64,000 nt of DNA from Bdellovibrionaceae bacterium UBA2339. Its GTDB lineage: Bacteria > Bdellovibrionota > Bdellovibrionia > Bdellovibrionales > JAMPXM01. Below, piece after piece: positions 12,162-57,023 of the stretch. Numbering within the stretch: the stretch's first letter is position 1; every line of letters starts with the position of its first letter. The notes under the pieces were generated by a model that had not been told where the DNA came from, made no database searches, and saw nothing but the letters and a program-made list of their open reading frames with translations. The DNA is taken from contig DDUL01000033.1 of assembly GCA_002344785.1 (NCBI GenBank), positions 43,238-107,237 on the forward strand, given 5' to 3'. The position numbers and the translations under genes were made by a program.

Positions 12162-13661
12162 TCAACGACTCAACGACTGAAGTTGAATGCGCTGGCCTTG
12201 AAGTCTCTGAGGTAAGAGATCTTCGCAGATTCTAGCGACGGAGTTCTTCGAGCCTGAGCCGAGGTGTTGAAGCGTGATCGAGATTCCTTGTGGGCCCCAA
12301 TTCACAAAGGCTGGATAAATGAGACCTTTGATCCGACCCATGGAATCGAATTGAGCTTCACCCAAAATGCTTTCAAGCACAGGTTTTTGTGATGTCGCGG
12401 ATTGGTCGTGCTGAAGCTCGCGAGTCTTAAGTAGGACTTGAAGGCCGGCGTACAAGTAGGCAGCGTGAAAGTCAGGATCGCGACCAAAGGCATCTCGGTA
12501 ACTTCGAACAAATTCACAATTGTCGTTGGCTGCATTCGCCCGATCTTGTCCTAAAAACGGAATCCAGAAGTGAACATGAGTTTCTTCGCCGGCCTTTGAC
12601 TTCGGAGCAAAAGGGGCGAGCCTTCGGCCGTAGAGGATCAATTTATTCGCACTAATGAAGACTGGGTCATCGCGGAGGCTGTCGAGCCCTTCGTGACGAA
12701 AACTCAGCAAGGCGAGGCTAATGGGCTGAGATCCGACTCGACTCTTGAGCTCACTCCACGCCTTCAGCAATTCATGATTGGAAAATTCGATCACCTGAAC
12801 TTGCTCGGCTTGTTTCCGAAGTTCATCGAGACTTGCATCAAAATAATCCGTGCCTGGACCGCGGGCTTGTAGCACCCAAATGGGCCGTTTGAAAAAGGCC
12901 GGGCGATGCTGTTTAAAGTTTGCGAGATATTGACGGGAGTTTAGAAAAACGTGTCGAAATTCAGCATCAGCTGAAGCGTTGAGTTTGCGAAGTTCTTGAT
13001 CCACGCGATCATCGGCGAGCACTTGGGTCCAGAGTTGTGAGATTTTCGGCTGAGTCGCCAACCACTTGCGGGTCATTGCCGAATCAGGAGGAGAAAACAG
13101 CGCCTTTTGATGGGTCTGATCAGCTTGGTCGCTCGGCTCGATTCGCTGGGAGTTGTACTTCACCTCGTTCGGTCCTGATCCGTTTTGCATGAACTTGAGC
13201 AGAGCTTGATTGAACTCCTCCCAAGTCTTGGGGCCCGGCTCGCTCGGCAAATCGAAAGTCAGGAAGTGAACTTGAGGGTGTCGGCGAGCGAATAATTCTG
13301 CAGCCTGATCAAGATACTGATTTTTACCCATACCCAGGATGCGAGGCCGAAGAATCCGAATTGAATTTTGAGTTGGGGTCTTGGGGCGGTGGATTCTGGG
13401 ATCTTGTGAGGGATCCGTCTGTGGGGCGGTTTGGCTCGGAGTCACCTGTGAGTGTTTGATGTTGGGGCCCGAACAAGCCGTGGCCGCGAGAGCTATGAGG
13501 CAAAGTTGAATGGGGTAGAGCCAAAGATGGGGCGGTACCCTGGCGCCTATGCCATGTGAGAGGTTTGAAGGGGCGTGACGGCCTACAAGTTTGAGACTCT
13601 CAAGTGCCCTTGGACACTTTGCGTTTGTCGAAATTGAAATGGAGGGTTCTAATAGTGACAT
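12162..13661 (-). CDS. hypothetical membrane-anchored periplasmic protein (C-terminal part reminiscent of type-1 periplasmic-binding fold)
   Basis: Long ORF converging on pyk with a 2-nt gap. It has a hydrophobic segment LWLYPIQLCLIALAATAC. The C-terminal FVRSYRDAFGRDPDFHAAYLYAGLQVLL resembles LivK-type binding proteins only by eye. The start is uncertain (ATG 13682 or 13661), and there is no in-frame start closer to the hydrophobic segment. Confidence 0.5.
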   Translation of the reverse strand: MSLLEPSISISTNAKCPRALESLKLVGRHAPSNLSHGIGARVPPHLWLYPIQLCLIALAATACSGPNIKHSQVTPSQTAPQTDPSQDPRIHRPKTPTQNSIRILRPRILGMGKNQYLDQAAELFARRHPQVHFLTFDLPSEPGPKTWEEFNQALLKFMQNGSGPNEVKYNSQRIEPSDQADQTHQKALFSPPDSAMTRKWLATQPKISQLWTQVLADDRVDQELRKLNASADAEFRHVFLNSRQYLANFKQHRPAFFKRPIWVLQARGPGTDYFDASLDELRKQAEQVQVIEFSNHELLKAWSELKSRVGSQPISLALLSFRHEGLDSLRDDPVFISANKLILYGRRLAPFAPKSKAGEETHVHFWIPFLGQDRANAANDNCEFVRSYRDAFGRDPDFHAAYLYAGLQVLLKTRELQHDQSATSQKPVLESILGEAQFDSMGRIKGLIYPAFVNWGPQGISITLQHLGSGSKNSVARICEDLLPQRLQGQRIQLQSLSR

Positions 13662-15141
13662 GGCCAACGATCGCACTCCCATTGAGTCAAAAGGTGTATT
13701 GGCCTCATTGATGTTATTCCTCGCGCTGAGCTTTGCAAGATTGTTCGCTCAGCCCGATCGCATTCATCGACTCTCGGCTGAGGCTTGGTCGGAAGGATTG
13801 ATGCTGCCAGCTCCTTGGTGGCCTGACTTTCTGTCTGGACTCATTCCCGATACCTCAACCCATATTCGCATTGTCGCAGCTTTGACATTGGCCCTCGTCG
13901 TGGGGCTGCAATTTTTGATGTTTTCCATGGCTACGGATCGCGGCAACTCGGAGTCGCCGCGCGCCATGCGGATGTGGCAAGTGGCGCATAGCCTGTTTTG
14001 TGCGGCCTTCATGTGGCGAGTTTTTCAGTATGGCTCGTCGGTCAGTGAATTTGAAGTCTACGATCATGTGTTCGGAATCCTCGCCTTTGCCTATCTTTTG
14101 GGTGGGCGTTTCCAGATCGAGCGAATTTGGTTCGCCCTAGCCGGCGTGTATTTTTTGAGTGCGTTAGCGAAACTCAATCCCTCTTGGTTGAGTGGTCGGA
14201 TCTTCACTACGACACAAGAGATGTTGGCGTTTCTTCCGGAAGTGGCTTGGATTGTACAATTGGCGTGTCTCCTCCTCGTGTTCATCGAGTTCGTCGTGCC
14301 CGGATTCTTTTTCTCAATCAGCGAGAGACGAAGACGATGGGCGTGGTGGACATTTATAGGCTTTCACGCCTACTCATTCTTTCTCATTGATTATCGCTTT
14401 CCGGGTCTCATGTTGACCTTCCTTATGGCCGTCGGGTTGAGCGGGCTTGGAAAATTCCCAGACCGTGATCGGCTCATTCAGTCATTCAAGTGGACATCGA
14501 GCGGCCGCGCTGAGACTCTCAAAACTTGGTCAGTGGCTGGGCTCATCTTGGGGATGATTGGTTCATCACTCATTTCAACTTTAAATCCGGGCGCGCGCGT
14601 GTTGACGATGCAGGGTCGATCAGCCGGCCTTTTCATGTTCGATGTGAACACCAATTGTCGAGTGAGTCTTCAGCTTCGCCGGCAAATCTCACAGGCTGAG
14701 GAAAGCTTTCAAATCATTCACACATCAGGCTATCGCGAGAATATGCGACTTGCTGATGGAGGCTCGGAGCCAAAGTCGCGCGATCGAATCGAGATATCCC
14801 TGAACTCACAAAGAATCCGACTCGACGCAAATGCCTATGGGAATATCTATGCCGGATTGAATCCTTCGTCAGGAAACCGAAATCTTCTCTACAATCGCGG
14901 TTTGATTTGTTCGGACTCAAGAAGAGTTTGTTGTGACCCCCAAGTGTACGCTCACTTTCTATCTCGACAGCTTCAACAAGGAAAGTGGGATGAGGTCGGT
15001 CTGAAAATTGAGGCGGATCTCAATGGTTGGCAGAAGTGGTGGACGGTGGTTGATCTCAACAATATTCGAAGCCTCGATCAATTGAAGTTCGAATTCTCCA
15101 ATCCTCCGGAAGACTACCCAGCGGAGTATCGATGGCCGTAG
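13660..15141 (+). CDS. polytopic membrane protein, possibly HTTM (vitamin-K-carboxylase-like) domain, with soluble C-terminal domain
   Basis: The first ~330 aa contain at least 8 hydrophobic segments. YFLSALAKLNPSWLSGRIF resembles the K-L-x-x-x-W-L-x-G stretch of HTTM domains (weak). The C-terminal ~180 aa is soluble. The start is ambiguous (TTG 13591, ATG 13639, ATG 13660 with GAGGG upstream). Confidence 0.55.
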   Translation: MANDRTPIESKGVLASLMLFLALSFARLFAQPDRIHRLSAEAWSEGLMLPAPWWPDFLSGLIPDTSTHIRIVAALTLALVVGLQFLMFSMATDRGNSESPRAMRMWQVAHSLFCAAFMWRVFQYGSSVSEFEVYDHVFGILAFAYLLGGRFQIERIWFALAGVYFLSALAKLNPSWLSGRIFTTTQEMLAFLPEVAWIVQLACLLLVFIEFVVPGFFFSISERRRRWAWWTFIGFHAYSFFLIDYRFPGLMLTFLMAVGLSGLGKFPDRDRLIQSFKWTSSGRAETLKTWSVAGLILGMIGSSLISTLNPGARVLTMQGRSAGLFMFDVNTNCRVSLQLRRQISQAEESFQIIHTSGYRENMRLADGGSEPKSRDRIEISLNSQRIRLDANAYGNIYAGLNPSSGNRNLLYNRGLICSDSRRVCCDPQVYAHFLSRQLQQGKWDEVGLKIEADLNGWQKWWTVVDLNNIRSLDQLKFEFSNPPEDYPAEYRWP

Positions 15142-17807
15142 GCGATCTTCAACAGTCTGGAGCTTCTTCGCAAGAAGTGAGCGAGGTCACCAAGATCTCT
15201 ATGCCGAGGCTTGATTTATTCAAGTCAGCCCTTGGGGCTATGGCCATGGTGAGCTTGCAGTTCGTGCAACATGAATTGGCCAAGTTGCTCCTACCTCAAA
15301 CCGCTTGGCTTCACCATCTCGTGTTGCTGCTCATATTTGTCGGCTTTGCGGCCGGGCATTTGCCTTGGGTTCATCGCCTGATAGGCCCACGCCAAAGCCT
15401 GGCGTTGGGATCATTGTTCCTGCTCTTGCCGTTCGCATTGAGTTCCATCGTCGAGTTTTGCCAAGCGGAGTTCGTGGGGCGAGCAACTTTCATTCTGTTC
15501 TTGGTGTGGTCGTCGATCGTCATGGGAGTTCAGGTTCTTCGAAATGTCTATGTAGGACTAGGATTCTTGTCTCCCTATCAGGCCTTCAATTTCCTGGCGG
15601 CCTTCACTTGGTTGAGCCTGTTTGGACTGCATATGATTTGGGGCTGGGTGCCGCTTGCTGTTCTGACGGGTGGGACCTTGATGGCAATTGGTCTTGGCGA
15701 AGTCAGGGGCTGGCTCCTTCCGCGTGCGCTTGAAATCCGAGCGCGACTCTTTGATTCCACCTCGGTCTACTTTGGGATTTGTGCTTCATTGTTTACGTCG
15801 GTTGTTCTTGAGGCCACGCGGATTGCGCTTTTCCCGACGGGGCTAGAGTTTGTCGCATTCCAGTTTGTCATTTTCGTCATGCTCGGCCTGGCCGCAACAA
15901 TTTCGCTACGCTCAAGGTTTTCGGTTCTCAATTCCTCGTTGATGAACCTCACTTTGGGTACGGGGGCCGCCGCCGTCGTGTTCATGAGTTTGAGTTGGTC
16001 AGCCGACTCGGTGAAGCTATGGCTGAGGCTATCGGATTTGTTTCCCATCGATAATTTGCGGATACAAAACCTCGTCTGGGTCAGTGTTTTCATGTTGCCC
16101 TATTTCTTTTTTGCGCGGCTTCTGCCACATCGTGAACGTGAGTCAGCTGAGGTTTCTGTTGCGTTACCTGGTGAACCTTCGGGTGCGCGGCCCAATCATC
16201 TCTTTAGCTTTGCTTGTGGAAATGCGATGGGATACGCGCTCTTTATCTTTGCGCTGATCGATTTTGACCTGAGCTTCGCCATCTTGACATTGATCGGTAT
16301 GACGATTTTGGCGGTCGTTGTGATGTCGAAGGCGCTTACCCCAAACCAAGTTCGTTACATAACGATGGCGCTCGCGGCCTTCATGCTGATTTTGGGCGCT
16401 TATGTGTGGAAGGGATTTGATCTCGATCGGGCTCTCATTCTCCAGGGCCGTAGTCTTTTGACACGCGCACACTTACGAACTGAGTCGCCGCCTGAGCATT
16501 TAGGATGGCTCCAAGGGATCTTTCGTCGGCGTGGAGATCGCGGATACGTTCTCCATCGATCACAAGGAAATGCATCGTTGGGTTTAGGCGGCTATAATTC
16601 GCGATTGTATCAACCCTTCGACGTCCTGAGGTCACGGTTGATTCATCATCCGTTCTTCAGTCAACGATCGCGGCCTCTCGTATTTGGAATGGGCAATGGA
16701 CTCGCATTTGAAGGTTTGCTGAAGCAAGGTGATCCCCAAAGAGTTCGTGTCGTTGATAACTTTGCGCCATTTGAGTTGAAGGAGTTCAGAGATCTCATTC
16801 GGCATCATACGCTGACGACTGAGAATAATTTGAAGGTCACACTCACTTCTCAAGACGCCCTGACTGAGCTTTTTGTATCTGATGAACGCCATGATCTCAT
16901 TGTTTGGAATTTGACTTGGCCAAGCTACTCAGCTTCTCGGAAGTTGTTGACTCAGGAAGTCTTTGCGCGGATTTCGCAACGTTTATCCGATGATGGCATT
17001 TTTGTTTTTGAACGACTTCCGAGCCGTGATTATGACTGCCTTGTCGCGACGACCTTTTCACATGTCTATCAGTTTCCCGGACAAGGATTTTATCCCGCCG
17101 CACTCTTGTTGGCGGCAAATTCTGAGATCTCCGAGCTCAACATTTTTCCCAAGCTTGATCGAGAGCGTAACTGCGCGTCCTGGCACACGCCCACGTGGGT
17201 CGAACCCTTTCGACTTGGTAAACACATCTATGGATTTGATTTTGGCCTGACAAGGATTCCGCAGACTTGGAATGGACCGCTTGCTGGTGAGATCAGTCCG
17301 GAGTGGAGTTATCTTGTCAGCATGAGTCGCGCGAATGCACAAAGTGGATTTCCAATCTACGTCCTGGATATGCATCTTCCGCATGCGGAACCAAGTGAAA
17401 ACCAATGGTGGAAAACGATTTGGCCGACTGAGATTGCCAAAGCCAAGCGTTCTGGGACCAAGCCTACAATTGACAGCTTTACGATCCACCCGCCGGACAC
17501 GCTAAACCTGACGCAAGTTGAGCGATACAGAGATGCGGTGGTGCTTCAGCGACTTGTGAAGCGATTCGGGATCTGGACAAATCTTCGATGTGAAGAACTC
17601 AAAGGACTTCGGAATCGACTCAATGACTCGACATGGATCTGGACGCCTTGGCCAAGTTGTGTTGATGAAAAGCGGGGTATTTTTCTTGGAGCGAAGTGGG
17701 CTGATATCGATCACTCTCTAAATGCTCATGGTGGTCGAAAAGAGCCCCGGCAATCGCCTCATGATCCTCCAACCTTGCCGCAAAATATGGAGGGTTCGGT
17801 CGATTGA
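15132..17807 (+). CDS. fused polytopic membrane / spermidine-synthase-like (Rossmann MTase fold) protein
   Basis: 891 aa, and ATG 15132 overlaps the upstream stop by 10 nt. About 12 or more TM segments occupy the N-terminal half. A spermidine-synthase-like layout follows: VFGMGNGLAFEGLL (GxGxG), VRVVDNF, LTSQDALTEL, DLIVWNLTWP, DDGIFVF. Confidence 0.7.
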   Translation: MAVGDLQQSGASSQEVSEVTKISMPRLDLFKSALGAMAMVSLQFVQHELAKLLLPQTAWLHHLVLLLIFVGFAAGHLPWVHRLIGPRQSLALGSLFLLLPFALSSIVEFCQAEFVGRATFILFLVWSSIVMGVQVLRNVYVGLGFLSPYQAFNFLAAFTWLSLFGLHMIWGWVPLAVLTGGTLMAIGLGEVRGWLLPRALEIRARLFDSTSVYFGICASLFTSVVLEATRIALFPTGLEFVAFQFVIFVMLGLAATISLRSRFSVLNSSLMNLTLGTGAAAVVFMSLSWSADSVKLWLRLSDLFPIDNLRIQNLVWVSVFMLPYFFFARLLPHRERESAEVSVALPGEPSGARPNHLFSFACGNAMGYALFIFALIDFDLSFAILTLIGMTILAVVVMSKALTPNQVRYITMALAAFMLILGAYVWKGFDLDRALILQGRSLLTRAHLRTESPPEHLGWLQGIFRRRGDRGYVLHRSQGNASLGLGGYNSRLYQPFDVLRSRLIHHPFFSQRSRPLVFGMGNGLAFEGLLKQGDPQRVRVVDNFAPFELKEFRDLIRHHTLTTENNLKVTLTSQDALTELFVSDERHDLIVWNLTWPSYSASRKLLTQEVFARISQRLSDDGIFVFERLPSRDYDCLVATTFSHVYQFPGQGFYPAALLLAANSEISELNIFPKLDRERNCASWHTPTWVEPFRLGKHIYGFDFGLTRIPQTWNGPLAGEISPEWSYLVSMSRANAQSGFPIYVLDMHLPHAEPSENQWWKTIWPTEIAKAKRSGTKPTIDSFTIHPPDTLNLTQVERYRDAVVLQRLVKRFGIWTNLRCEELKGLRNRLNDSTWIWTPWPSCVDEKRGIFLGAKWADIDHSLNAHGGRKEPRQSPHDPPTLPQNMEGSVD

Positions 17808-18898
17808 GTTCTTTGGATGGACGTTCTTTTGTTGTGCCTAAGGGTTCGCGTGGGTTGCGAATCTTGACTCGCTTGGCGTGGGTATTGGTGATTCTCATTT
17901 CCTTAGGCGAGCTGCTGGCTCGCTTGATCGCGCCAGTTCATGAGACTCGACAACTGAGCTCTTCGGGTTCACTCTACCAGCGACATGATCGTGTCGGCTA
18001 CCGCCTCTATCCCAACATAGAATCGAAGGTGCAACTTCTTGAGGGCAGTCGAAGTGTCTTTACGGTGACATATCGGACTGACGAGTTTGGTCGGCGACGG
18101 CATTCGCCTGCTTCCTCTTCGGTCATTGCGCGGCCAAGATTTCTTGCGATTTTTGGTGCATCGACGGCCTTTGGCATGGGTCTCGAAGATGAGGAAACCC
18201 TCGCATACTTTCTTCATACGCAAGCCACCCGCTACGAGGTGTTCAATTATGCGGCCGATGGTTATGGACCGCAGTCTGCGTTCGCACTGGTCGATGCAAA
18301 CGTTTTGCAGGATGAGGTCGTCCAAGATCGAGGAATCGCAATCTATGTGCTGCAGCTGTTGCCGGGCGTGGGCGGGCATGCGCAGACGATGTCGGCAAGT
18401 TTTGAACTGACGATGGCGCGTTGGGGAGAGTCGCTCACTTTCTATGATCTCGATGCGAGTGGTCGCCCCATGCTTCGCGGAACTCTTCGAGATGTATCGC
18501 CGCTTCGATTCTACGCATTTCGATTTCTACAAAATTTCCAGCTTCTCAATTTGTTGTGGCCCTACGTGAAAGCCAAAGAGCCCGACCTCGATCGAGATCT
18601 CACGCTGATGTTGCGGGCTTGGGGCGAGGGGGTTCGTCGAAGTAAACCCATGAGCCGCGCTGTTGTGGTGATTCACCCCTTTTCAGACCCGAACCTATCC
18701 GCCCAGTTCGTTCATGTCTGGCACTCGATGCCAACAGATCGAATGAGCTTGTTTGATTATTCGAATCGTCTTTCAGAACAGCAGAAGCAAGGATATGTCG
18801 CCTTTAATAAATTCATTGCTCACCCCAATGCTGAACTCAACGAGATCCTATCAAAGTGGCTAGTCCAGGATTTGAATCTAAGTGGGGAGAACCCATGA
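17804..18898 (+). CDS. membrane-anchored SGNH/GDSL-like protein (weak family call)
   Basis: TTG 17804 overlaps the upstream stop (TTGA). TM anchor LAWVLVILISLGELLA. FLAIFGASTAFGMG resembles SGNH block I (GDSxxxG) with Asp replaced by Ala. Confidence 0.55.
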   Translation: MSSLDGRSFVVPKGSRGLRILTRLAWVLVILISLGELLARLIAPVHETRQLSSSGSLYQRHDRVGYRLYPNIESKVQLLEGSRSVFTVTYRTDEFGRRRHSPASSSVIARPRFLAIFGASTAFGMGLEDEETLAYFLHTQATRYEVFNYAADGYGPQSAFALVDANVLQDEVVQDRGIAIYVLQLLPGVGGHAQTMSASFELTMARWGESLTFYDLDASGRPMLRGTLRDVSPLRFYAFRFLQNFQLLNLLWPYVKAKEPDLDRDLTLMLRAWGEGVRRSKPMSRAVVVIHPFSDPNLSAQFVHVWHSMPTDRMSLFDYSNRLSEQQKQGYVAFNKFIAHPNAELNEILSKWLVQDLNLSGENP

Positions 18899-20109
18899 GG
18901 ATCACTCGAGATGTTTTCAACTTTGCTTCATTGATGTTGGTGTGTGCTTTGAGCCTGAGCTGCGCAGGCCCTCCGAAGCGGGATCGTCTTTCCGAGTCAC
19001 AACGTCCATTGCATCGCATTGAGTATCGAGAAGATTTGGATCTTCAGCAGGAGATCGACAAGATTGCTGAGAAGTTTCCGCGAGCCACGATTCTTTTGGC
19101 AGCCGGCACTTACAGGCCTCAACACGAGGGCCAAGCTCTGTTGCATCTGAATTCAAAGCACAATGGGCTCAAGATCATGGGCGAAGATCGGGATCGAGTG
19201 ATCTTGACGGCTCAAGCCTCAGTTGCGCGCTATGAAGTCTTGGCGGCCGAAGGGAAGTTGACTGCAGTGGCTCCGCTAGCTCCCCCCGAATCGCGGGTGA
19301 TTGTGAATCATGTGGTCTACTTTGGCGACGGTGTGGATTCGACAACCGAACTCAGTCAGATGAGCATCACGGGCGCCCGAGGATATCTCACTAAGACGGG
19401 CGAGAGGCAGGCGGAACCCAACACTCAGCATCTTCGGCGATTCATTTTCTATGCCGATGGCGGAGGTGTGAAGATTTGGGGGAAAAGCTCACCACAGTTG
19501 CGCGATTTGAAGATCGAGGACAATTGGGCGCTTTACTGCGGCGGCGGAGTGTCGATCGAGCAGTTCGCCCAAACCGATGAGCCCGTTCGCATTCAGCGAG
19601 TGATTTTCAAAGGCAATCGAGTGCCGCTGACGGGAGCGGCCATTGACTTGTTGCCGGGAAGTTCGGCCATTGTCGAAGATTCAGTGTTTGAGGCAAATCA
19701 AGCTAATGACAGTTGGATTGAAGTTTCGCGCGTTAATGAGGTACGTCGTGAATTCATGAGACGTCAGCCGCACACTCAGGGCACCGATGCTCACCCAGAT
19801 CAGGGGCAGGGACCGAGTGGAACAGGACTGAGTCAGTTCACAAAGTCTTCGGCGATCACGGTTTTCAGAGGCTCATCGATTGAACTTCGACGGAGTGAGT
19901 TCAAAGGGAACTCAGGTGGCCTCGACTTCCTCAATTTTGTTCGATGGTACTCATCCGATGAAAAGTTGATTCGGCGTCGTCGCCTCAGCTTACTTGAAGA
20001 TTTGAGTTTTGCTCGGCAGAGGCTGCATGACATCAAGGGTATCGGGAGCTTCTTGGGTGGCGAGATTCGATCGCAGCGAATTCAGCTCGAAAAACCGATT
20101 CAAGACTGA
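18895..20109 (+). CDS. lipoprotein with right-handed parallel beta-helix (PbH1-type) repeats
   Basis: ATG 18895 overlaps the upstream stop (ATGA). Lipobox signal MRITRDVFNFASLMLVCALSLSC. Repeated units are YADGGGVKIWG, YCGGGVSIEQ, FKGNRVPLTGAAIDL, FEANQAND and FKGNSGGLDF. Confidence 0.65.
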   Translation: MRITRDVFNFASLMLVCALSLSCAGPPKRDRLSESQRPLHRIEYREDLDLQQEIDKIAEKFPRATILLAAGTYRPQHEGQALLHLNSKHNGLKIMGEDRDRVILTAQASVARYEVLAAEGKLTAVAPLAPPESRVIVNHVVYFGDGVDSTTELSQMSITGARGYLTKTGERQAEPNTQHLRRFIFYADGGGVKIWGKSSPQLRDLKIEDNWALYCGGGVSIEQFAQTDEPVRIQRVIFKGNRVPLTGAAIDLLPGSSAIVEDSVFEANQANDSWIEVSRVNEVRREFMRRQPHTQGTDAHPDQGQGPSGTGLSQFTKSSAITVFRGSSIELRRSEFKGNSGGLDFLNFVRWYSSDEKLIRRRRLSLLEDLSFARQRLHDIKGIGSFLGGEIRSQRIQLEKPIQD

Positions 20110-20125
20110 AGAATATAAATTTCGA

Positions 20126-20950
20126 TCAGCTTTGAGCGGATTTCTGCGATCGCATACGCTCTTCAAGTAATCGGCTTATAGGAATCAGTGTTGTTGTCAG
20201 AAAAATGGCGTACATCAAAGAATCGGGTCGCTCCAAGGCGCGGAAAAGCTGATCAAAGAAGACAATGCTCACAGCATAGAGCGCTTGGGTCCATCTTCTC
20301 TGCGGGGAAGTTGCGGGATCTGTCATCATGAAGAAAAAGGCGAGCAGAAAACCCGTTGAGTACATCGTTGGCCAATTGGCCAGGGCGGGGAAGCCGGCGA
20401 TGGACTCAAGCAACAATGCGCCAAGCGGATAGGCGATGAAAATCGCGACCAACATGGTCAGCTTCTTCGCTAGATAAAGCACGGGGATTCCGAATCCGAG
20501 AATGATCAAAGGGAAGATCCATGTGGTCCCCCATCTTGAGCCTTGAGTGACAGCCTCGGACGGCCACACAAGCAAAGCCACGACAATTCCAAAGTTAGAA
20601 GGGTTGAGAAAGTGTCGACCTCGAAACAAAAGCACATATTTGGAGATCACAGCTAAAACACTGGCAGCAATCAAAAAGGGTAGGTCCGCGCGCAAATTGA
20701 AGATCACGCTGCTGGCCAAGGAGATCGAACTGAGTGGTAAGTCTCTCAAACTTAACTGTTTAAGATTCCACTTCAATGAATGAGAACCAGAAATCGCCTT
20801 GAGCAGTCGATCTAACAAAATTACGCCGAAGATCATCCCGATGACTTCCACCGCGGATAGATTGAGGTAGTCGAGTATCAAGGCGCTGGACAGCAGTGAA
20901 ATTTGGAATGCCAATGCCAGCCATTTGAAATTAAAGGTCGAGTGTTTCAT
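20126..20950 (-). CDS. NqrB/RnfD-like polytopic membrane protein (orphan), module 2
   Basis: 274 aa with multiple TM segments. GRHFLNPSNFGIVVALLVWP and FFFMMTDPATSPQRRW match the two signature stretches of the NqrB/RnfD family. No [ST]GAT flavinylation motif is present. The start overlaps the stop of 20947-22869 (ATGA). Confidence 0.65.
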   Translation of the reverse strand: MKHSTFNFKWLALAFQISLLSSALILDYLNLSAVEVIGMIFGVILLDRLLKAISGSHSLKWNLKQLSLRDLPLSSISLASSVIFNLRADLPFLIAASVLAVISKYVLLFRGRHFLNPSNFGIVVALLVWPSEAVTQGSRWGTTWIFPLIILGFGIPVLYLAKKLTMLVAIFIAYPLGALLLESIAGFPALANWPTMYSTGFLLAFFFMMTDPATSPQRRWTQALYAVSIVFFDQLFRALERPDSLMYAIFLTTTLIPISRLLEERMRSQKSAQS

Positions 20951-22869
20951 TTCGACCCGCGCCGAATGAGGATGTAGGAGTTGAGTTCTCGAGAATGAAG
21001 GGGACGAAAGCTTCTCGTTCCATCAGGCCAGCGAACGACCAAGGAGAGTTCGCCTTTGATCTCTTCAGGTGAAATGCCAAAGACCAATCTTGAATCACTT
21101 TGCGCCATATAACCATTGAGCGGGTACAAACTGCGAAGTCGACGATGTTGTCGGTCGACGGCCAGAACCACTTGTGCGCCCCAAGCTTGGCGGTTGCCAG
21201 GGGACCCTTCATCAAGGAGGGAAACACCGATCCAATTGGTCGCACCTTTGGTGTGAGTGGAATTGGGGTGATCATGGGTCTCGTCCTGATTCTCGTCTCG
21301 AGGAGAATTGATGAGCAATTCAGGTTTGGCGTTCTGATTTGCGATCGCAAGATCAACTCGTCCATCATTATTAAAGTCCGACGCCGCGACTCCTCGTGCA
21401 TCTTTTCGGCTGGTGGCTCCAACAATCTCAGACACATCCCAATATCGACCGCGTTCGAAAGTGAATAAACAGTTTCGCTGTCGGTCCGCAAAATTTTTGC
21501 TCCGCATATTGGGGGATCGAAAGCGATCATCCTCCATGAGAAAAGTGGGAAGGCTCGCGGTCGTCATTGACTCGTAGACATAGGACTCCCGCACGCCTTC
21601 TCGCGTGATGTTCCCATTGCTGACAAAAAGCTCAAGCTGGCCGTCAAGATCAAAGTCCACCGCTTTGGGTGCCCAGGCCCAACCACAATTGTGCAGACGA
21701 TGCTCTTTCGCTGAGTTCGTGTCGAAGCGACCACTTCGATTGAGGAAAAAATTATTTCCCCAATTCACCATACGATCCTCAAAAATCACGGCGGAAAACA
21801 CATCTTCGCGGAGATCATTGTTGAAGTCGGCCACTTCAACACCCATTCCCGAATTGGTTGAAACTCGCTTAAGCGTTGGTCGGCCCAGCGCAAACTTTCC
21901 TTCGCCGCGATTCAAATAATAGAAGTCTCGTCCCCAGCCATTGCCAAAATAAAGATCCAACTTTCGATCTCCATTGAGATCCAAAACTGCCACCGACCAG
22001 AGCCAGGCTTTGATGTCGCCGAGGCCAGCTTCCTGAGTCACATCGACAAACGACCTGCCTTGCTGATTCTTGAGTAAATGAATTCGGGACCCATTGCTGG
22101 GTTGGTTGGTCGAATCCCAGAGGACTCGACTATGAAGTGGATTGAGAAGATCGAAGCCCTCTTGGCTCCAATAAGTGAGAATCAGATCCAGCCAACCATC
22201 TTGGTTGAAGTCGAAGACATTTAAACCTGTTCCGTAACCACACAAGTCTTGGGGAATTAGATCCCGTCTTTCCGTAAAGGCCGCAGCAGCTGATCGTCTT
22301 GCCTGATTCACAAATAGTGTTGAGCAGCCACTGAGTCGATGCACAAACAAGTCATCGTCACCATCGCCATCGAAATCGAAAAACGCCACTGGGCCGCTTT
22401 GGGCATTTTGATTGATCAGATCCAAGCCAGATTGAGCCGCAACTTCATTGAAGCCTCGACCTTTCAGATTGAGATAAAGATGTGGCTTGGACCCGAGTTT
22501 ATTGTTTGCGAAAAAAACATCCATCCAGCCATCTTTGTTGAGATCTACAGTCGCCACAGCTGCGCCATTTGTCGTGAATCGGGGGGCCAGATTGACGAGC
22601 TGAGTTTCCGAGGGATCAGCGATCGGGCCCTCATTCACAAAGTGGATCCCCAGTTCATCAGCTCGATCAATCAATTGAAAGTTCGGAGCACGCCCACTCC
22701 AGCCCTGAAGTCCTCGAGAGTCTTGGTAGGAGGCGTTGCTTTCCGAGAAGGGTTCATAACGGGGCGTTGCGAATGCGACCAAGGCACCAAGGCTCAATGC
22801 AACACAGGCCTGAGCCAGGTCCTTGTTGAAGTGCAGGGCTTTGAGAAATTGAGCCCACTCGAGTTTCAT
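20947..22869 (-). CDS. exported FG-GAP/VCBS-repeat protein with UnbV/ASPIC C-terminal domain (CRTAC1-like), module 2
   Basis: 640 aa with a signal-like N-terminus. The Ca-type loops are DLNKDGWMDVFF, DFDGDGDDDLFV, DFNQDGWLDLIL, DLNGDRKLDLYF, DFDLDGQLELFV and DFNNDGRVDLAI. The C-terminal sequence is TNWIGVSLLDEG..WGAQVVLAV..YPLNGYMAQSDSRLVFGI. Confidence 0.8.
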   Translation of the reverse strand: MKLEWAQFLKALHFNKDLAQACVALSLGALVAFATPRYEPFSESNASYQDSRGLQGWSGRAPNFQLIDRADELGIHFVNEGPIADPSETQLVNLAPRFTTNGAAVATVDLNKDGWMDVFFANNKLGSKPHLYLNLKGRGFNEVAAQSGLDLINQNAQSGPVAFFDFDGDGDDDLFVHRLSGCSTLFVNQARRSAAAAFTERRDLIPQDLCGYGTGLNVFDFNQDGWLDLILTYWSQEGFDLLNPLHSRVLWDSTNQPSNGSRIHLLKNQQGRSFVDVTQEAGLGDIKAWLWSVAVLDLNGDRKLDLYFGNGWGRDFYYLNRGEGKFALGRPTLKRVSTNSGMGVEVADFNNDLREDVFSAVIFEDRMVNWGNNFFLNRSGRFDTNSAKEHRLHNCGWAWAPKAVDFDLDGQLELFVSNGNITREGVRESYVYESMTTASLPTFLMEDDRFRSPNMRSKNFADRQRNCLFTFERGRYWDVSEIVGATSRKDARGVAASDFNNDGRVDLAIANQNAKPELLINSPRDENQDETHDHPNSTHTKGATNWIGVSLLDEGSPGNRQAWGAQVVLAVDRQHRRLRSLYPLNGYMAQSDSRLVFGISPEEIKGELSLVVRWPDGTRSFRPLHSRELNSYILIRRGSK

Positions 22870-22975
22870 GAATTCGCCTCTCCCTCTCGAGTTTAATCCT
22901 CAGTGCTTCGCCTTGACCAGTACTCTGGCGCAGTTTGAGTCAGCTTGTCGCCGCTTCACGAGCTTAAAATGGGCC

Positions 22976-23911
22976 TCAATCGTTCGTGTGGGATGCCATG
23001 CTGACGCTTGCGATCTTGTGCGACTTGGCTTCAGAAATTTCGCAACTTTCACCTCTGACAAGTCGATAGGCGAACCATCCACTTTGAACGAAAACGTAGG
23101 CCAATAGATCCGGCATGACGATGAGAAGTGACCTCAGTACAAGATCGACGACTCCAATCAAGAATCCGAACGCCCATTGCTCTTTGCGCCGGCGCGGGCT
23201 GGTTTGCGGGTCCGTTATGATATTGAAGGTAAAAATCATGGACCCAAGTGACCCCAATGTCGCGATCCAAAATAGTGGCCCGAGTGTTTGAGTCGCCCAG
23301 ATCGGACGGAGATCAAGCCAGCTTCCGACGTAGTGCCAGGCGAGACTCGCAAGACTCAAACCCAACACATAGCTCATTGAGATCCACAATCCTTTCGCAA
23401 GCCATGCGACGGCGATGGCTAACGGCAATGCCCAAACATGAACGTGCCAAAAGTCACCCCAAGAAGTGCCGCCGTAAGTGAGGTGTTGAGGAAGGAGCGT
23501 GATGGCTAAAACCGATGCGATTGCCGAAGGGTTGTAAACATGCCGACCGTCAGGACCAATCAACCAGATCTTGGAAATGAAAATGAAAAGTCCAGCGATC
23601 GCCAGAGCCGGGTAGCTAAAGGCCTCGACATTCACAAATAATGAAATCGTGGCGGCCACGATGTTGAGCCGTATCCAAGCATGCGAACCAGTTTCAGGAG
23701 CAGGAGTGACTTTCGGGTGGGATTGGAGATGTGCGAATCTGCGGAGAGCATAGTCGATCAAAACATGCGTCGACAGTAGGGCAAAAAACCAAACTAATGG
23801 ACGAGGATGAGCGGCGAAATTGAGTGCGAAACCGATGTAGACGATTTGCGTGAGGACTTGAACAGCCAATGTTGGTGTCAGTGAGACTCCAAATATTCGT
23901 TTGAAGTTCAT
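22976..23911 (-). CDS. NqrB/RnfD-like polytopic membrane protein (orphan), module 1
   Basis: 311 aa and paralogous to 20126-20950. It carries GRHVYNPSAIASVLAITLLP and FTFNIITDPQTSPRRRKEQW. The start overlaps the stop of 23908-25899 (ATGA). Confidence 0.65.
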   Translation of the reverse strand: MNFKRIFGVSLTPTLAVQVLTQIVYIGFALNFAAHPRPLVWFFALLSTHVLIDYALRRFAHLQSHPKVTPAPETGSHAWIRLNIVAATISLFVNVEAFSYPALAIAGLFIFISKIWLIGPDGRHVYNPSAIASVLAITLLPQHLTYGGTSWGDFWHVHVWALPLAIAVAWLAKGLWISMSYVLGLSLASLAWHYVGSWLDLRPIWATQTLGPLFWIATLGSLGSMIFTFNIITDPQTSPRRRKEQWAFGFLIGVVDLVLRSLLIVMPDLLAYVFVQSGWFAYRLVRGESCEISEAKSHKIASVSMASHTND

Positions 23912-54869: not shown

Positions 54870-55742
54870 TTAAGGTTCCAGACGTGCGGGTGAAGAAAAT
54901 AGCGCGCGCGTTCCATGTCGCTTCAGTCCTCGGATCAGCCACCGCCAAGGCGCAAGGCAAGCTTTAAGAGGATTCCTGACGACATCCTCTCGTCCCAACG
55001 AACCTTCGACTCCAAAGGCTGCGAGGTCTCCTTCCGGAGACTTCCATGTTCCAAACATCCTGTCCCACACCGTCAACATTCCGCCATAGTGGACATCGCG
55101 CCATTTTAAATCTTTGGCGTGATGGAAGGCGTGAGTTCGAGGAGTCACAAATAAAAGTTCGACCCATGAATTTCCAATTCGTGATCCCAAATGTGAATAC
55201 GCTTGATAAAGACCATTGGTCCAACCAGCGCTCAACATTAAAAGTGGCGGAACTCCGACAATCGCGAGAGGTAAGTAGAACCAATAGGTCAGGGCCTTGT
55301 TGAAAAACGAAAGTCTTGTGCCCATCGAGAGATTGAAGTGCTCCGGCTGATGGTGCACCACATGCACGGTCCAGAGCAGCGAAGTCTGATGCATGAGACG
55401 ATGGTGCCAATAGTAAACAAAGTCGTTGAGAAGCAACGCTAAGAAAAAATCGGCGACCGTCCATTCAAACTTCAGCAAAGAGAAATTTCGAAAGAGATAA
55501 ATGTAAAGTGCGATCAATGGCGTTTGAAACACCAGTTTCCCAATCTGATGAAGCAGAATACTGCCAAAGTTGCTGAGTGTTTCGCCCATTGAATAATGGC
55601 GGGGACTACGGATGGCCTCGATGATTACGGAACCCAAGAGAATTGCGAAGATGAGAACTTCAAAGTTTTGTTCAAGCCAAAACTGGCTTTCCCAAGGCTT
55701 CCAGGTGATCCAATTCAAGGAGCTCACAGCTTCCTCAACCAT
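54870..55742 (-). CDS. fatty-acid-hydroxylase / sterol-desaturase-family membrane di-iron enzyme
   Basis: His boxes YYWHHRLMH, HVVHH and HAFHH sit within 4-5 TM segments. ATG 55742 overlaps the stop of 55735-56886 by 8 nt. The ORF-track start 55853 would overlap much more. Confidence 0.8.
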   Translation of the reverse strand: MVEEAVSSLNWITWKPWESQFWLEQNFEVLIFAILLGSVIIEAIRSPRHYSMGETLSNFGSILLHQIGKLVFQTPLIALYIYLFRNFSLLKFEWTVADFFLALLLNDFVYYWHHRLMHQTSLLWTVHVVHHQPEHFNLSMGTRLSFFNKALTYWFYLPLAIVGVPPLLMLSAGWTNGLYQAYSHLGSRIGNSWVELLFVTPRTHAFHHAKDLKWRDVHYGGMLTVWDRMFGTWKSPEGDLAAFGVEGSLGREDVVRNPLKACLAPWRWLIRGLKRHGTRALFSSPARLEP

Positions 55743-56886: not shown

Positions 56887-57023
56887 GTTAACAAATAATC
56901 TTTCGGAGTCTGCGGCAAACTCGCGCTATTTCAGTGGGCGAGGGAAGAGTTTAACGGAAGGCACACCCCTGGACTTTCCCACGCGCTTTTTTTGTTAGCA
57001 CTCCGAGGTCAAGTCGTCGCAAC

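What the first reader, a model, noticed from the sequence alone, without database searches (positions are those of the whole stretch)
13591..20109. Four-gene translationally coupled envelope operon built from rarely combined parts
Seen: four consecutive + strand ORFs with overlapping stop/start junctions (15132/15141 by 10 nt, 17804/17807 TTGA, 18895/18898 ATGA). (1) A polytopic protein with a possible HTTM-like stretch (YFLSALAKLNPSWLSG) and a soluble C-domain. (2) An 891-aa fusion of about 12 TM segments to a spermidine-synthase-like Rossmann domain (GMGNG, VVDNF, QDAL). In this domain the position of the usual D in the 'D-x-x-D-P' block reads WNLTWP. (3) A TM-anchored protein with an SGNH block-I-like FGASTAFGMG. 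(4) A lipoprotein made of parallel beta-helix repeats. Inference: this is a membrane-embedded transferase, an esterase/acyltransferase-like protein and a glycan-binding-type beta-helix, coupled at 1:1 stoichiometry. That looks like an uncharacterised cell-surface polymer or lipid modification system. None of the four can be given a substrate from sequence alone.
Basis: partly seen in the sequence, partly recalled or inferred. Interest (0 to 1): 0.6.

Follow-up and report, generated by a model that had tools for sequence, protein, structure and literature searches.

The report
Periplasmic carboxylase-like enzyme cluster, function unknown

Summary
Four co-directional genes (g1 13639-15141, g2 15132-17807, g3 17804-18898, g4 18895-20109) have overlapping stop/start junctions, each preceded by a Shine-Dalgarno-like site. 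A relative at 82-88% identity keeps both junctions that its contig reaches.

The domain guesses are largely right:
- g1 is a divergent HTTM/vitamin-K-carboxylase (GGCX)-like protein. The catalytic Lys-x4-Trp motif is kept.
- g2 has 13 predicted TM helices plus a complete spermidine-synthase fold. The family conserves LGLGN and WNLTWP in place of GGGDG and D-x-x-D-P.
- g3 (SGNH-like) and g4 (beta-helix) are only weakly supported.

The conserved unit is not the four genes. Across four lineages, in three gene orders, g2 travels with g1 and with a type-I periplasmic-binding-protein-like lipoprotein, which here is the divergent gene 12162-13682(-). In at least 8 g2 relatives that binding domain is fused directly after the spermidine-synthase-like domain. 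Together with the charge bias of the loops and a conserved Cys pair, this places the domain in the periplasm, where SAM is not expected. A classical transferase role is therefore doubtful.

g3 has no orthologue elsewhere; g4 recurs once. The g2 family is very rare (85 of 1.84 billion representatives). The substrate is unknown.

The parts
12162..13682 (-). PBP-like lipoprotein ('up506'), divergent from g1 and outside the reported finding. The start codon is uncertain (ATG 13682 or 13661). Hydrophobic signal region ends ...LIALAATAC.
   Evidence: Homologues lie next to g2-like genes in L001 (70% identity), L002/L004 (Bacteriovorax stolpii), L003/L009 and L013. The family profile weakly matches type-I binding proteins: GABA-B receptor Venus-flytrap domain E 0.0098, Leu/Ile/Val-type binding proteins E 0.2. 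Pfam Peripla_BP_6 hits the B. stolpii member at E 9e-5 over profile positions 8-288 of 343. The same domain is fused to the C-terminus of g2 relatives.
13639..15141 (+). g1: divergent HTTM/GGCX-like polytopic membrane protein (TM region about residues 18-315) with a C-terminal soluble domain (about 320-500).
   Evidence: AlphaFold2 model: pLDDT 63.6, pTM 0.61. Foldseek against PDB: ranks 1-11 are all vitamin K-dependent gamma-carboxylase, probability 0.96-1.0, E 3e-3 to 5e-2, then a gap to E 0.43. The profile aligns YFwagtlKLneeWlsG with GGCX YFIAGVKKLDADWVEG. Family members hit Pfam HTTM (12 of 30) and MauE (10 of 30). The window copy keeps K178, W183, G186, E217, F242-H243 and C340/C432. It lacks the family's R-x-N-Q-H-Y-M motif and two of the three Cys pairs.
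15132..16430 (+). g2 membrane domain: 13 predicted TM helices. Conserved motifs are GESR-type (loop 2), PYFFFA..LP.RE.E and NHLFS.SLGN.LG (loop 10/TM11).
   Evidence: AlphaFold2 helices with pLDDT mostly 80-95; family alignments A1 and A2. Family-average Lys+Arg count is about 13 in even-numbered loops against 3 in odd-numbered loops, which puts the N-terminus inside. No Pfam or PDB sequence match for this part. No internal duplication.
16500..17201 (+). g2 spermidine-synthase (PABS)-fold domain, residues about 457-690, with remodelled motifs: GMGNG for GGGDG, WNLTWP for D-x-x-D-P. D542, D575 and N593 are invariant in the family; C636 and C681 are at least 90% conserved.
   Evidence: NCBIfam PRK03612 E 4.6e-11. 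PDB 7xif E 2.2e-5 for the single sequence and 2.1e-12 for the family profile. 18 of 26 relatives hit PF01564. The top 50 Foldseek hits are all aminopropyltransferases, E 6.5e-7, target TM-score 0.49-0.59. Conservation.
17202..17807 (+). g2 C-terminal tail (about residues 691-891): poorly conserved, low model confidence, and not PBP-like in this lineage.
   Evidence: pLDDT below 55. No match to the PBP-family HMMs even with all filters off.
17804..18898 (+). g3: protein with an N-terminal membrane anchor (5 Lys/Arg residues before TM 24-42, so the body faces the periplasm). SGNH/GDSL-like: block I GAS at 118-120, His in AHPN at 339-342.
   Evidence: NCBIfam NF047474 (LA_2486 family SGNH/GDSL esterase) E 7.1e-7 over residues 27-158, 28.7 bits against a cut-off of 300. 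No Pfam or PDB sequence hit. Conserved in L001. No orthologue in the other loci, and pairwise comparison with neighbouring GDSL proteins in L008 and L010 is not significant.
18895..20109 (+). g4: secreted protein, probably a lipoprotein (signal peptide ending LSLSC), with right-handed beta-helix repeats.
   Evidence: PF13229 Beta_helix E 5.5e-4, 20 bits against a cut-off of 25.9. A homologue at 36% identity (E 3e-31) lies in L008, 2-3 kb from a g1-like gene and 5-8 kb from two g2-like genes.
20126..25899 (-). Possible associated genes: two tandem pairs of an RnfD/NqrB-like membrane protein and an FG-GAP/ASPIC-UnbV protein, convergent on g4.
   Evidence: Pfam hits. The same pair occurs in the L008 cluster. 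The association rests on one other lineage only.
54870..58148 (.). Possible distant partners: a FA_hydroxylase (54870..55853, -) and two paralogous polytopic 'X-like' proteins (55735..56886, -; 57024..58148, +).
   Evidence: X and FA_hydroxylase sit inside the g1/g2 clusters of L003/L009, L004, L008 and L012.

Best explanation
The region encodes a periplasm-facing inner-membrane module found in predatory Bdellovibrionota-type bacteria. Its conserved core has three proteins.

1. g1 is a divergent member of the HTTM / vitamin-K-carboxylase superfamily. It keeps the quinol-deprotonating Lys stacked on a Trp (K178/W183, matching GGCX K218/W223). It has lost the Asn-His pair that holds glutamate and CO2 in GGCX.
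2. g2 is a 13-helix membrane protein whose spermidine-synthase-fold domain lies in the periplasm. That domain has a conserved but remodelled pocket.
3. The third protein is a type-I binding-protein-like lipoprotein, encoded divergently at 12162-13682. It works with, and probably docks on, the g2 periplasmic domain.

Inferred mechanism. The binding-protein-like domain and the SpeE-fold pocket capture a periplasmic or membrane-surface ligand, plausibly amine-bearing. g1 uses membrane quinol and O2 to oxidise or otherwise modify that ligand, or a protein or lipid presented with it. Carboxylation in the GGCX manner is less likely for this copy.

In this lineage the core is translationally coupled to two accessory exported proteins. 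One is an anchored SGNH-like hydrolase or acyltransferase (g3). The other is a beta-helix lipoprotein (g4).

Shown: the gene structure, the folds, the conservation patterns, the gene neighbourhoods and the domain fusions. Inferred: the compartment, the physical association, the use of quinol, and every statement about the substrate.
For: Genes and junctions:
- The genes are real and their junctions overlap.

g1:
- GGCX-like fold and motif.
- In GGCX, Lys218 is the general base, fixed by stacking on Trp223, while Asn159/His160 bind the glutamate substrate (PMC12647623).
- The window copy keeps the Lys and Trp but not the Asn/His motif.

g2:
- Complete SpeE fold.
- LGLGN, VVDNF, DA and WNLTWP are conserved across 26 relatives at about 20% identity, so the altered pocket is under selection.

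Periplasmic placement of the SpeE-like domain:
- 13 TM helices.
- Lys+Arg bias of about 13 (even loops) against 3 (odd loops).
- A near-invariant Cys pair, C636 and C681.
- A PBP-like domain follows the SpeE-like domain in 8 of 86 family representatives. Examples: P0019 E 1e-61, P0013 7.5e-41, P0009 3.8e-32.
- In the 6 fusion proteins that have a membrane domain, no hydrophobic segment lies between the two domains.
- Stand-alone PBP-like proteins carry signal or lipoprotein peptides.

Neighbourhood:
- g2 with g1 in 4 of 7 lineages that have usable flanks.
- g2 with a stand-alone PBP-like gene in 4 of 7.
- Three different gene orders.
- Periplasmic CXXCH P460-type haem proteins and FA_hydroxylases recur nearby, which fits oxidative chemistry.

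g3 and g4:
- Both are predicted to be exported.
Against: - No substrate, product or phenotype is known for any family involved.
- The g1 model is only moderate (pLDDT 63.6). TM-scores to GGCX are 0.32-0.44, and the window protein itself has no Pfam HTTM hit.
- The invariant Asp542 and Asp575 of g2 sit where SAM-dependent enzymes bind ribose and adenine. That would fit an active cytoplasmic enzyme better than a periplasmic one.
- Most conserved polar motifs of the g2 membrane domain fall on the predicted cytoplasmic face.
- Topology was inferred from sequence only. Model coordinates could not be inspected, and the distance between the two cysteines was not measured.
- The g1-like family also occurs alone in unrelated contexts (L005, L006).
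- One g2 relative (L010) has neither partner within 6 kb.
- g3 and g4 may be functionally unrelated passengers.
Confidence: 0.4

Rival explanations
1. g2 is a membrane-embedded SAM- or dcSAM-dependent alkyl, methyl or aminopropyl transferase with a cytoplasmic catalytic domain. It modifies a lipid or envelope polymer precursor held in its membrane domain. g1, g3 and g4 then process the product on the outer face.
For: - Gly-rich motif I, Asp542 (ribose position) and Asp575 (adenine position) are invariant.
- The GGGDG Asp is replaced by Asn. From my own knowledge, loss of this Asp accompanies the switch from dcSAM to SAM in putrescine N-methyltransferase.
- N593 in WNLTWP resembles the N/D-P-P-Y/W motif IV of amino-methyltransferases (my inference).
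- Conserved polar motifs of the TM domain lie on the predicted cytoplasmic face.
- NCBI recognises fused MFS/spermidine-synthase proteins as a family.
Against: - 13 TM helices with a strong positive-inside bias put the domain outside.
- A PBP-like domain homologous to exported lipoproteins is fused directly after it in at least 8 relatives.
- There is a near-invariant Cys pair.
- Both catalytic Asp residues of D-x-x-D-P are absent.
- Scores are far below every curated aminopropyltransferase cut-off.
Confidence: 0.2
2. g2 is a binding-protein-dependent transporter or sensor. The 13-helix domain is a permease. The periplasmic SpeE-fold and PBP-like domains capture a prey-derived amine or amino-acid-like ligand. 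g1 and the other neighbours are separate enzymes that act on the imported or sensed compound.
For: - PBP-like domains are classical transporter or receptor partners, and this one is fused or adjacent to g2.
- A g1-like gene ends an oligopeptide ABC-transporter operon in L005.
- All placeable loci come from predatory-bacteria lineages.
- A Gly-Glu-Ser-Arg motif in loop 2 is reminiscent of MFS motif A (my inference).
Against: - No transporter family matches the membrane domain by sequence.
- No MFS-type internal duplication is detectable.
- This does not explain the recurrent linkage to a GGCX-like enzyme, FA_hydroxylases and P460 haem proteins.
Confidence: 0.2
3. The cluster matures a secreted peptide or natural product. 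g1 would act like MloH, the Streptomyces GGCX-like carboxylase of malonomycin biosynthesis, and the other genes would tailor or export the product.
For: - Bacterial GGCX-like enzymes with a proven role act in natural-product biosynthesis (MloH).
- In B. stolpii an isonitrile-type cluster (PvcA/TauD/P450) abuts the module.
Against: - No precursor peptide, NRPS or PKS gene lies in or next to the window cluster.
- The Asn/His carboxylation-site motif is missing in the window g1.
- The neighbouring biosynthetic genes are not conserved across lineages.
Confidence: 0.08
4. There is no four-gene system. g1-g2 (with the PBP-like gene) is one unit, and g3-g4 are unrelated exported proteins that merely share a transcript in this lineage.
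For: - g3 has no orthologue in any other g2 locus.
- g4 recurs in only one other lineage.
- Gene order is reshuffled between lineages.
Against: - The TTGA and ATGA overlaps, each with a good SD-like site, argue for co-translation.
- SGNH/GDSL-type genes, though not orthologous, occur near g2 in L008 and L010.
- A g4 homologue sits in the L008 cluster.
Confidence: 0.3
5. g2 is a genuine membrane-bound polyamine aminopropyltransferase that makes surface-associated spermidine.
For: The best family hits are to polyamine aminopropyltransferases, including the membrane-fused PRK03612 type.
Against: - Both Asp residues of D-x-x-D-P and the Asp/Glu of GGGDG are replaced, and this holds across the family.
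- The score is 41.8 bits against a cut-off of 472.
- The domain is predicted to be periplasmic.
Confidence: 0.03

Closest known systems
[quoted passage not shown]
   Same: - Polytopic membrane domain followed by a soluble extracytoplasmic domain.
- The predicted fold matches GGCX over the whole length.
- The Y-F-x4-K-L-x3-W-x-x-G motif carries the catalytic Lys and its stacking Trp.
- By spacing, E217 and F242 may correspond to GGCX D263 and F286. This is an inference, not an alignment result.
   Different: - 12-13% sequence identity.
- The window protein does not hit PF05090 at all.
- It lacks the Asn-His pair used for the Glu/CO2 site.
- About 500 aa against 758 aa, with no recognisable propeptide-binding region.
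- Its partners (SpeE-fold membrane protein, PBP-like lipoprotein) are unknown for any GGCX-like enzyme.
Spermidine synthase / polyamine aminopropyltransferase (PF01564), including the membrane-fused PRK03612 type (NF002956) and fused MFS/spermidine synthase (NF037959)
   Same: - Full PABS fold, including the N-terminal beta-hairpin part.
- A polytopic N-terminal extension, as in PRK03612 and MFS_SpdSyn proteins.
- Gly-rich loop and two nucleotide-site Asp residues retained.
   Different: - GGGDG becomes G(L/M)GN.
- D-x-x-D-P becomes WNL(T/S)WP, and this is conserved family-wide.
- 13 TM helices with no sequence similarity to the PRK03612 or MFS membrane parts.
- The domain is predicted to be periplasmic and is often followed by a PBP-like domain.
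- Scores are far below the curated cut-offs.
Type-I periplasmic binding proteins / Venus-flytrap domains (Peripla_BP_6 PF13458, ANF_receptor PF01094)
   Same: - Weak but full-length profile similarity.
- Exported lipoprotein.
   Different: - Below the gathering score in every member.
- No ABC-transporter partner.
- Found adjacent to, or fused after, a SpeE-fold domain.
SGNH/GDSL hydrolases (LA_2486 family NF047474 of Leptospira)
   Same: - Block-I-like GASTAFG with Ser.
- HPN-type His near the C-terminus.
- The N-terminal 130 residues align to the family model.
   Different: - 28.7 bits against a cut-off of 300.
- The block III Asn and block V Asp were not identified.
- No Pfam or PDB sequence match.

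Membership tests
HTTM / GGCX superfamily (PF05090) | Significant match of the protein itself to the Pfam HTTM model | tested here: not met
   Window g1 has no Pfam family at E up to 10. Among 30 family members, 12 hit HTTM (best E 3.5e-5) and 10 hit MauE.
HTTM / GGCX superfamily (PF05090) | GGCX-like three-dimensional fold | tested here: met
   Foldseek ranks 1-11 are all GGCX, probability 0.96-1.0, 505-562 aligned columns, then a sharp drop. Caveat: the model has pLDDT 63.6, and TM-scores are 0.32-0.44.
HTTM / GGCX superfamily (PF05090) | Catalytic Lys (GGCX K218) with the stacking Trp five residues later (W223) | tested here: met
   K178 and W183 are invariant in 30 family members and aligned to GGCX KKLDADW by hmmsearch. 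The roles of these residues are taken from PMC12647623.
HTTM / GGCX superfamily (PF05090) | Asn-His pair of the glutamate/CO2 site (GGCX N159/H160) | tested here: not met
   The wider family has an invariant N-Q-H-Y. The window g1 and its close relative have F-E-V-Y at those columns. Equivalence to GGCX N159/H160 is my inference from motif position.
HTTM / GGCX superfamily (PF05090) | Quinol- and O2-dependent epoxidase or carboxylase activity | not testable with these tools
   Needs biochemistry.
Polyamine aminopropyltransferase (SpeE, PF01564 / TIGR00417 / PRK03612) | PABS fold | tested here: met
   The top 50 Foldseek hits are all aminopropyltransferases, E 6.5e-7. The family profile hits 7xif at E 2.1e-12.
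Polyamine aminopropyltransferase (SpeE, PF01564 / TIGR00417 / PRK03612) | Score at or above the curated family cut-off | tested here: not met
   No Pfam hit for the window protein. PRK03612 41.8 bits against 472; TIGR00417 12.8 against 249.55.
Polyamine aminopropyltransferase (SpeE, PF01564 / TIGR00417 / PRK03612) | Acidic residue in GGG(D/E)G and both Asp residues of D-x-x-D-P | tested here: not met
   GMGNG and WNLTWP align to GGGEG and MDLTDP of 7xif. The replacements are conserved in the family.
Polyamine aminopropyltransferase (SpeE, PF01564 / TIGR00417 / PRK03612) | Cytoplasmic catalytic domain with access to dcSAM | tested here: inconclusive
   Sequence-based topology, the Cys pair and the PBP-like fusions favour the periplasm. 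No experimental topology is available.
Fused MFS/spermidine synthase (NF037959) | Match to the family model at or above the cut-off; MFS-type membrane domain | tested here: not met
   13.3 bits against a cut-off of 40, and only in the SpeE part. No internal two-fold repeat in the TM domain.
SGNH/GDSL hydrolase | Conserved blocks I (Ser), II (Gly), III (Asn), V (Asp-x-x-His), or a significant family match | tested here: inconclusive
   A block I Ser and a C-terminal HPN His can be read in the sequence. NF047474 gives E 7.1e-7 but far below its cut-off. Blocks III and V were not confirmed, and no structure was predicted.
Right-handed parallel beta-helix (PF13229) | Match to the Beta_helix model at or above the gathering score | tested here: not met
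   20 bits against 25.9, E 5.5e-4. The L008 homologue is also only a weak hit. No structure was predicted.
Type-I periplasmic binding protein (PF13458 / PF01094) | Match at or above the gathering score; exported | tested here: inconclusive
   Best member 22.7 bits against 31.7, over profile positions 8-288 of 343. PDB profile hits at E 0.0098-0.2. Signal or lipoprotein peptides are present in the family.
Translationally coupled operon | Stop/start overlaps with ribosome-binding sites, conserved in relatives | tested here: met
   The g1/g2 overlap and the g2/g3 TTGA with its SD-like site are conserved in L001. The g3/g4 junction could not be checked because the L001 contig ends.

The most novel reading that the evidence does not exclude
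A previously unrecognised kind of periplasmic modification machine in predatory bacteria. A bacterial vitamin-K-carboxylase-like enzyme would use membrane quinol and O2. Its partner would be a membrane protein that displays an extracytoplasmic spermidine-synthase-fold domain, working without SAM as a substrate-holding or novel catalytic module. A Venus-flytrap-type binding domain would complete the assembly. Together they would chemically modify an envelope or prey-derived molecule.
Probability: 0.3. Interest if true: 0.8.

Novelty: new variant of a known kind. Interest (0 to 1): 0.6.

Why it matters
Apart from MloH, the roles of bacterial relatives of the human vitamin-K carboxylase are largely unexplored. 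I know of no case of a spermidine-synthase fold placed outside the cytoplasm. This locus links both to a specific, repeatedly co-inherited partner set, with domain fusions that point to physical association.

Close relatives of the core genes exist in a cultivable organism with a complete genome, Bacteriovorax stolpii. The function of a widespread HTTM-like family (more than 670 members, none with a precomputed Pfam domain among the 120 listed) therefore becomes experimentally testable.

If the periplasmic placement is right, it also shows how a SAM-enzyme fold can be repurposed where SAM is absent.

Tried and rejected
Searches that returned little:
- Word-indexed homologue searches with g2 and with a four-sequence g1 alignment returned only the window's own protein and one close relative. 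An exhaustive HMMER search for g2 and a search seeded with a distant g1 relative were needed.
With 8 sequences it found only one genome locus and one metagenome locus.

Structure work that was blocked:
- Model coordinates are not exposed, so the Cys636-Cys681 distance and helix orientations could not be checked.

Tests that were negative:
- Homology between the g2 TM domain and g1 (hhalign probability 9%).
- Internal duplication in the g2 TM domain.
- A PBP-like remnant in the window g2 tail.
- g3 against neighbouring GDSL proteins in L008 and L010.
- PDB sequence hits for g1, g3 and g4 as single sequences.
- Promoter and terminator signal above shuffle level.

Literature:
- Searches found no paper on this gene combination.

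Rejected readings:
- Genuine polyamine synthase, because the catalytic residues are lost family-wide.
- GT-C glycosyltransferase for g2, because the first periplasmic loop is 6 residues long with no acidic motif. This rests on inference only.

Full report
**Observation**

The region holds four long co-directional ORFs. I call them g1 (13591/13639..15141), g2 (15132..17807), g3 (17804..18898) and g4 (18895..20109).

- ATG 15132 lies 10 nt before the g1 stop, with GGAG 5 nt upstream.
- TTGA at 17804-17807 has GGAGGG about 10 nt upstream.
- ATGA at 18895-18898 has GGGGAG 6 nt upstream.

Every quoted motif is present at the stated place.

The window matches proteins named from a Pseudobdellovibrionaceae MAG at 100% identity. 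A related contig, L001, encodes g1, g2 and the start of g3 at 88, 82 and 85% identity. It keeps the 10-nt overlap and the GGAGGG...TTGA junction. Differences between the two concentrate at third codon positions, so these are real genes under purifying selection.

Two corrections apply. g1 probably starts at ATG 13639 or 13660, not at TTG 13591. g2 has 13 predicted TM helices rather than about 12.

**g1**

Neither Pfam, NCBIfam nor PDB sequence searches hit the single protein.

A distant relative found next to a g2-like gene (P0089) retrieved more than 670 proteins of about 410 aa. They come from Bacteriovorax stolpii, Binatia, Rokubacteria and Bdellovibrionota. None of the 120 listed has a precomputed Pfam domain.

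Three results place the family near GGCX:
- Of 30 aligned members, 12 hit Pfam HTTM (best E 3.5e-5) and 10 hit MauE.
- The family profile's only PDB hits at E below 0.5 are human vitamin-K-dependent gamma-carboxylase (E 0.09). They align YFwagtlKLneeWlsG to YFIAGVKKLDADWVEG.
- An AlphaFold2 model of the window protein (pLDDT 63.6, pTM 0.61) gives GGCX as Foldseek ranks 1-11. Probability is 0.96-1.0 over about 505-560 columns, followed by a gap to E 0.43.

[quoted passage not shown] It is fixed by stacking on Trp223. Asn159 and His160 hold the glutamate substrate (PMC12647623).

The window g1 keeps K178, W183, G186, E217, F242-H243 and one Cys pair (C340/C432). Where the rest of the family has an invariant N-Q-H-Y, it has F-E-V-Y, and it lacks two of the family's three Cys pairs.

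This copy looks like a derived member that keeps the quinol site but not the carboxylation site. That last step is my inference.

**g2**

Residues about 457-690 form a complete spermidine-synthase fold:
- NCBIfam PRK03612, E 4.6e-11.
- PDB 7xif, E 2.2e-5.
- Family profile against 7xif, E 2.1e-12.
- The top 50 Foldseek hits are all aminopropyltransferases.

An exhaustive HMMER search of 1.84 billion representatives found only 85 relatives at E ≤ 1e-3 and 33 at E ≤ 1e-10. A scan of 185,579 species genomes found one locus, and a metagenome scan found one.

Across 26 relatives at about 20% identity, the family conserves LGLGN, VDVVDNFxPF, DA and YDLIVWNL(T/S)WP. G519, G521, D542, D575 and N593 are invariant, and C636 and C681 are at least 90% conserved. 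The positions aligned to GGGEG and D-L-T-D-P of 7xif read GMGNG and N-L-T-W-P.

The pocket is therefore remodelled and under selection, not decayed. The protein fails every curated aminopropyltransferase criterion.

**The conserved partner lies outside the reported coordinates**

The divergent gene 12162..13682(-) encodes a lipoprotein-like protein. Its family shows weak but full-length similarity to type-I periplasmic binding proteins.

Homologues of this gene and of g1 lie beside g2-like genes in three other arrangements:

| Lineage | Arrangement |
|---|---|
| Bacteriovorax stolpii (L002/L004) | g2 divergent from PBP-like → g1-like → X |
| L003/L009 | g2 → PBP-like → g1-like → X, all overlapping, then a P460 haem protein, a FA_hydroxylase and a second g2 |
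| L013 | g2 → PBP-like |

L008 has no PBP-like gene. It combines the following:
- two g2 paralogues
- a g1-like gene coupled to a FA_hydroxylase
- X-like genes
- a GDSL/TPR protein
- a g4 homologue (36% identity, E 3e-31)
- the same RnfD-like + FG-GAP/ASPIC pair that follows g4 in the window

Among seven lineages with usable flanks, g1 is near g2 in four and a stand-alone PBP-like gene in four. L010 has neither. The g1-like family also occurs alone elsewhere.

g3 has no orthologue outside L001.

**Domain fusions and compartment**

An HMM of the PBP-like family hits the C-terminal extensions of eight of the 86 listed g2-family proteins: P0019 (E 1e-61), P0013 (7.5e-41), P0009 (3.8e-32), P0032, P0048, P0010, P0024 and P0054. 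In the six that carry a membrane domain, no hydrophobic segment separates the SpeE-like and PBP-like domains. P0019 and P0032 show no hydrophobic segment at all.

Stand-alone PBP-like proteins have signal or lipoprotein peptides.

Independently, the family-averaged Lys+Arg count is about 13 in even-numbered loops against 3 in odd-numbered loops. This places the N-terminus inside and, with 13 helices, the SpeE-like domain outside. The conserved Cys pair fits an oxidising compartment.

I therefore put the SpeE-fold domain in the periplasm with roughly 75-80% confidence. This undercuts a classical SAM- or dcSAM-dependent transferase role. The invariant nucleotide-site aspartates remain unexplained under this reading.

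**g3 and g4**

g3 has five Lys/Arg residues before a single TM helix, so its body is predicted to be periplasmic. It has a weak SGNH/GDSL match (E 7e-7, far below the cut-off).

g4 has a signal peptide ending LSLSC and a sub-threshold Beta_helix match.

All soluble parts of the locus are thus predicted to be extracytoplasmic.

**Most likely mechanism**

The locus encodes a periplasm-facing inner-membrane module. A binding-protein-like domain and a remodelled SpeE-fold pocket hold a ligand. A GGCX-like enzyme supplies quinol- and O2-driven chemistry. SGNH-like and beta-helix accessory proteins are specific to this lineage.

The recurrence of periplasmic CXXCH P460 proteins and membrane di-iron FA_hydroxylases in sister clusters fits oxidative chemistry on a lipid-like or envelope substrate.

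The folds, conservation, neighbourhoods and fusions are shown. The compartment is inferred from three concordant lines. Quinol use, complex formation and the substrate are inferred only.

The rivals are a cytoplasmic SAM-dependent lipid transferase, a binding-protein-dependent transporter or sensor, natural-product maturation like MloH, and unrelated passengers for g3 and g4. They are listed with tests that would separate them.

**Comparison and novelty**

Each part belongs to a known fold class. However, g1 fails the direct Pfam test and lacks one catalytic motif. g2 fails the defining catalytic and threshold features of aminopropyltransferases. The combination appears in none of the papers searched.

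I rate it a new variant of known kinds: a bacterial GGCX-like system and a membrane-fused SpeE-like protein. I give roughly a 30% chance that it is a distinct, new type of periplasmic modification system.

Noticed in passing
window 20126-25899 (- strand): Two tandem pairs of an RnfD/NqrB-like membrane protein (274 and 311 aa) and an FG-GAP/ASPIC-UnbV (CRTAC1-like) protein (640 and 663 aa), convergent on g4. The same pair lies 5-8 kb from a g2-like gene in L008. It is an uncharacterised recurring pair.
   Followed up: partly
window 54870-58148: A FA_hydroxylase (54870-55853, -) plus two paralogous polytopic proteins with no family (55735-56886, -; 57024-58148, +). Homologues of both ('X' and FA_hydroxylase) sit inside the g1/g2 clusters of L003/L009, L004, L008 and L012. 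The window may therefore carry the rest of the module 35 kb away.
   Followed up: partly
window 8842-10515 (+): A 557-aa highly charged, probably coiled-coil protein (rich in K, R, E and Q) with no family hit. It is 98.6% identical to the L001 copy, while flanking genes are only 70-88% identical. This is unusually strong conservation.
   Followed up: no
L003 15239-16276; L004 2810-3814; L007 3180-4136: Cytochrome_P460-domain proteins with a signal peptide and one CXXCH motif sit beside g2-like genes in three lineages. No homologue was found in the window.
   Followed up: partly
L004 12330-15862 (Bacteriovorax stolpii CP030035.1): An isonitrile-type set (DIT1_PvcA, TauD, P450, HAD) directly abuts the PBP-like / g1-like / X operon.
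   Followed up: no
window 13591-13682: The longest ORFs of g1 (+) and the PBP-like gene (-) overlap head to head. In the window the PBP-like gene has no start codon close to its signal peptide, unlike L001. Its N-terminus is therefore either 45-52 residues longer or starts at a non-canonical codon.
   Followed up: partly
window 15132-15175 (g2 N-terminus): The NCBI MAG copy of g2 (P0001) is annotated as partial and starts at residue 15. The g1 copy (P0087) is on a different contig. That public assembly therefore breaks at the g1/g2 junction.
   Followed up: no
L008 9001-14882; L009 9001-12057 and 18382-20919; L013 2967-10237: Several genomes carry two divergent g2 paralogues in the same cluster, sometimes one with and one without the fused PBP-like domain.
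   Followed up: partly
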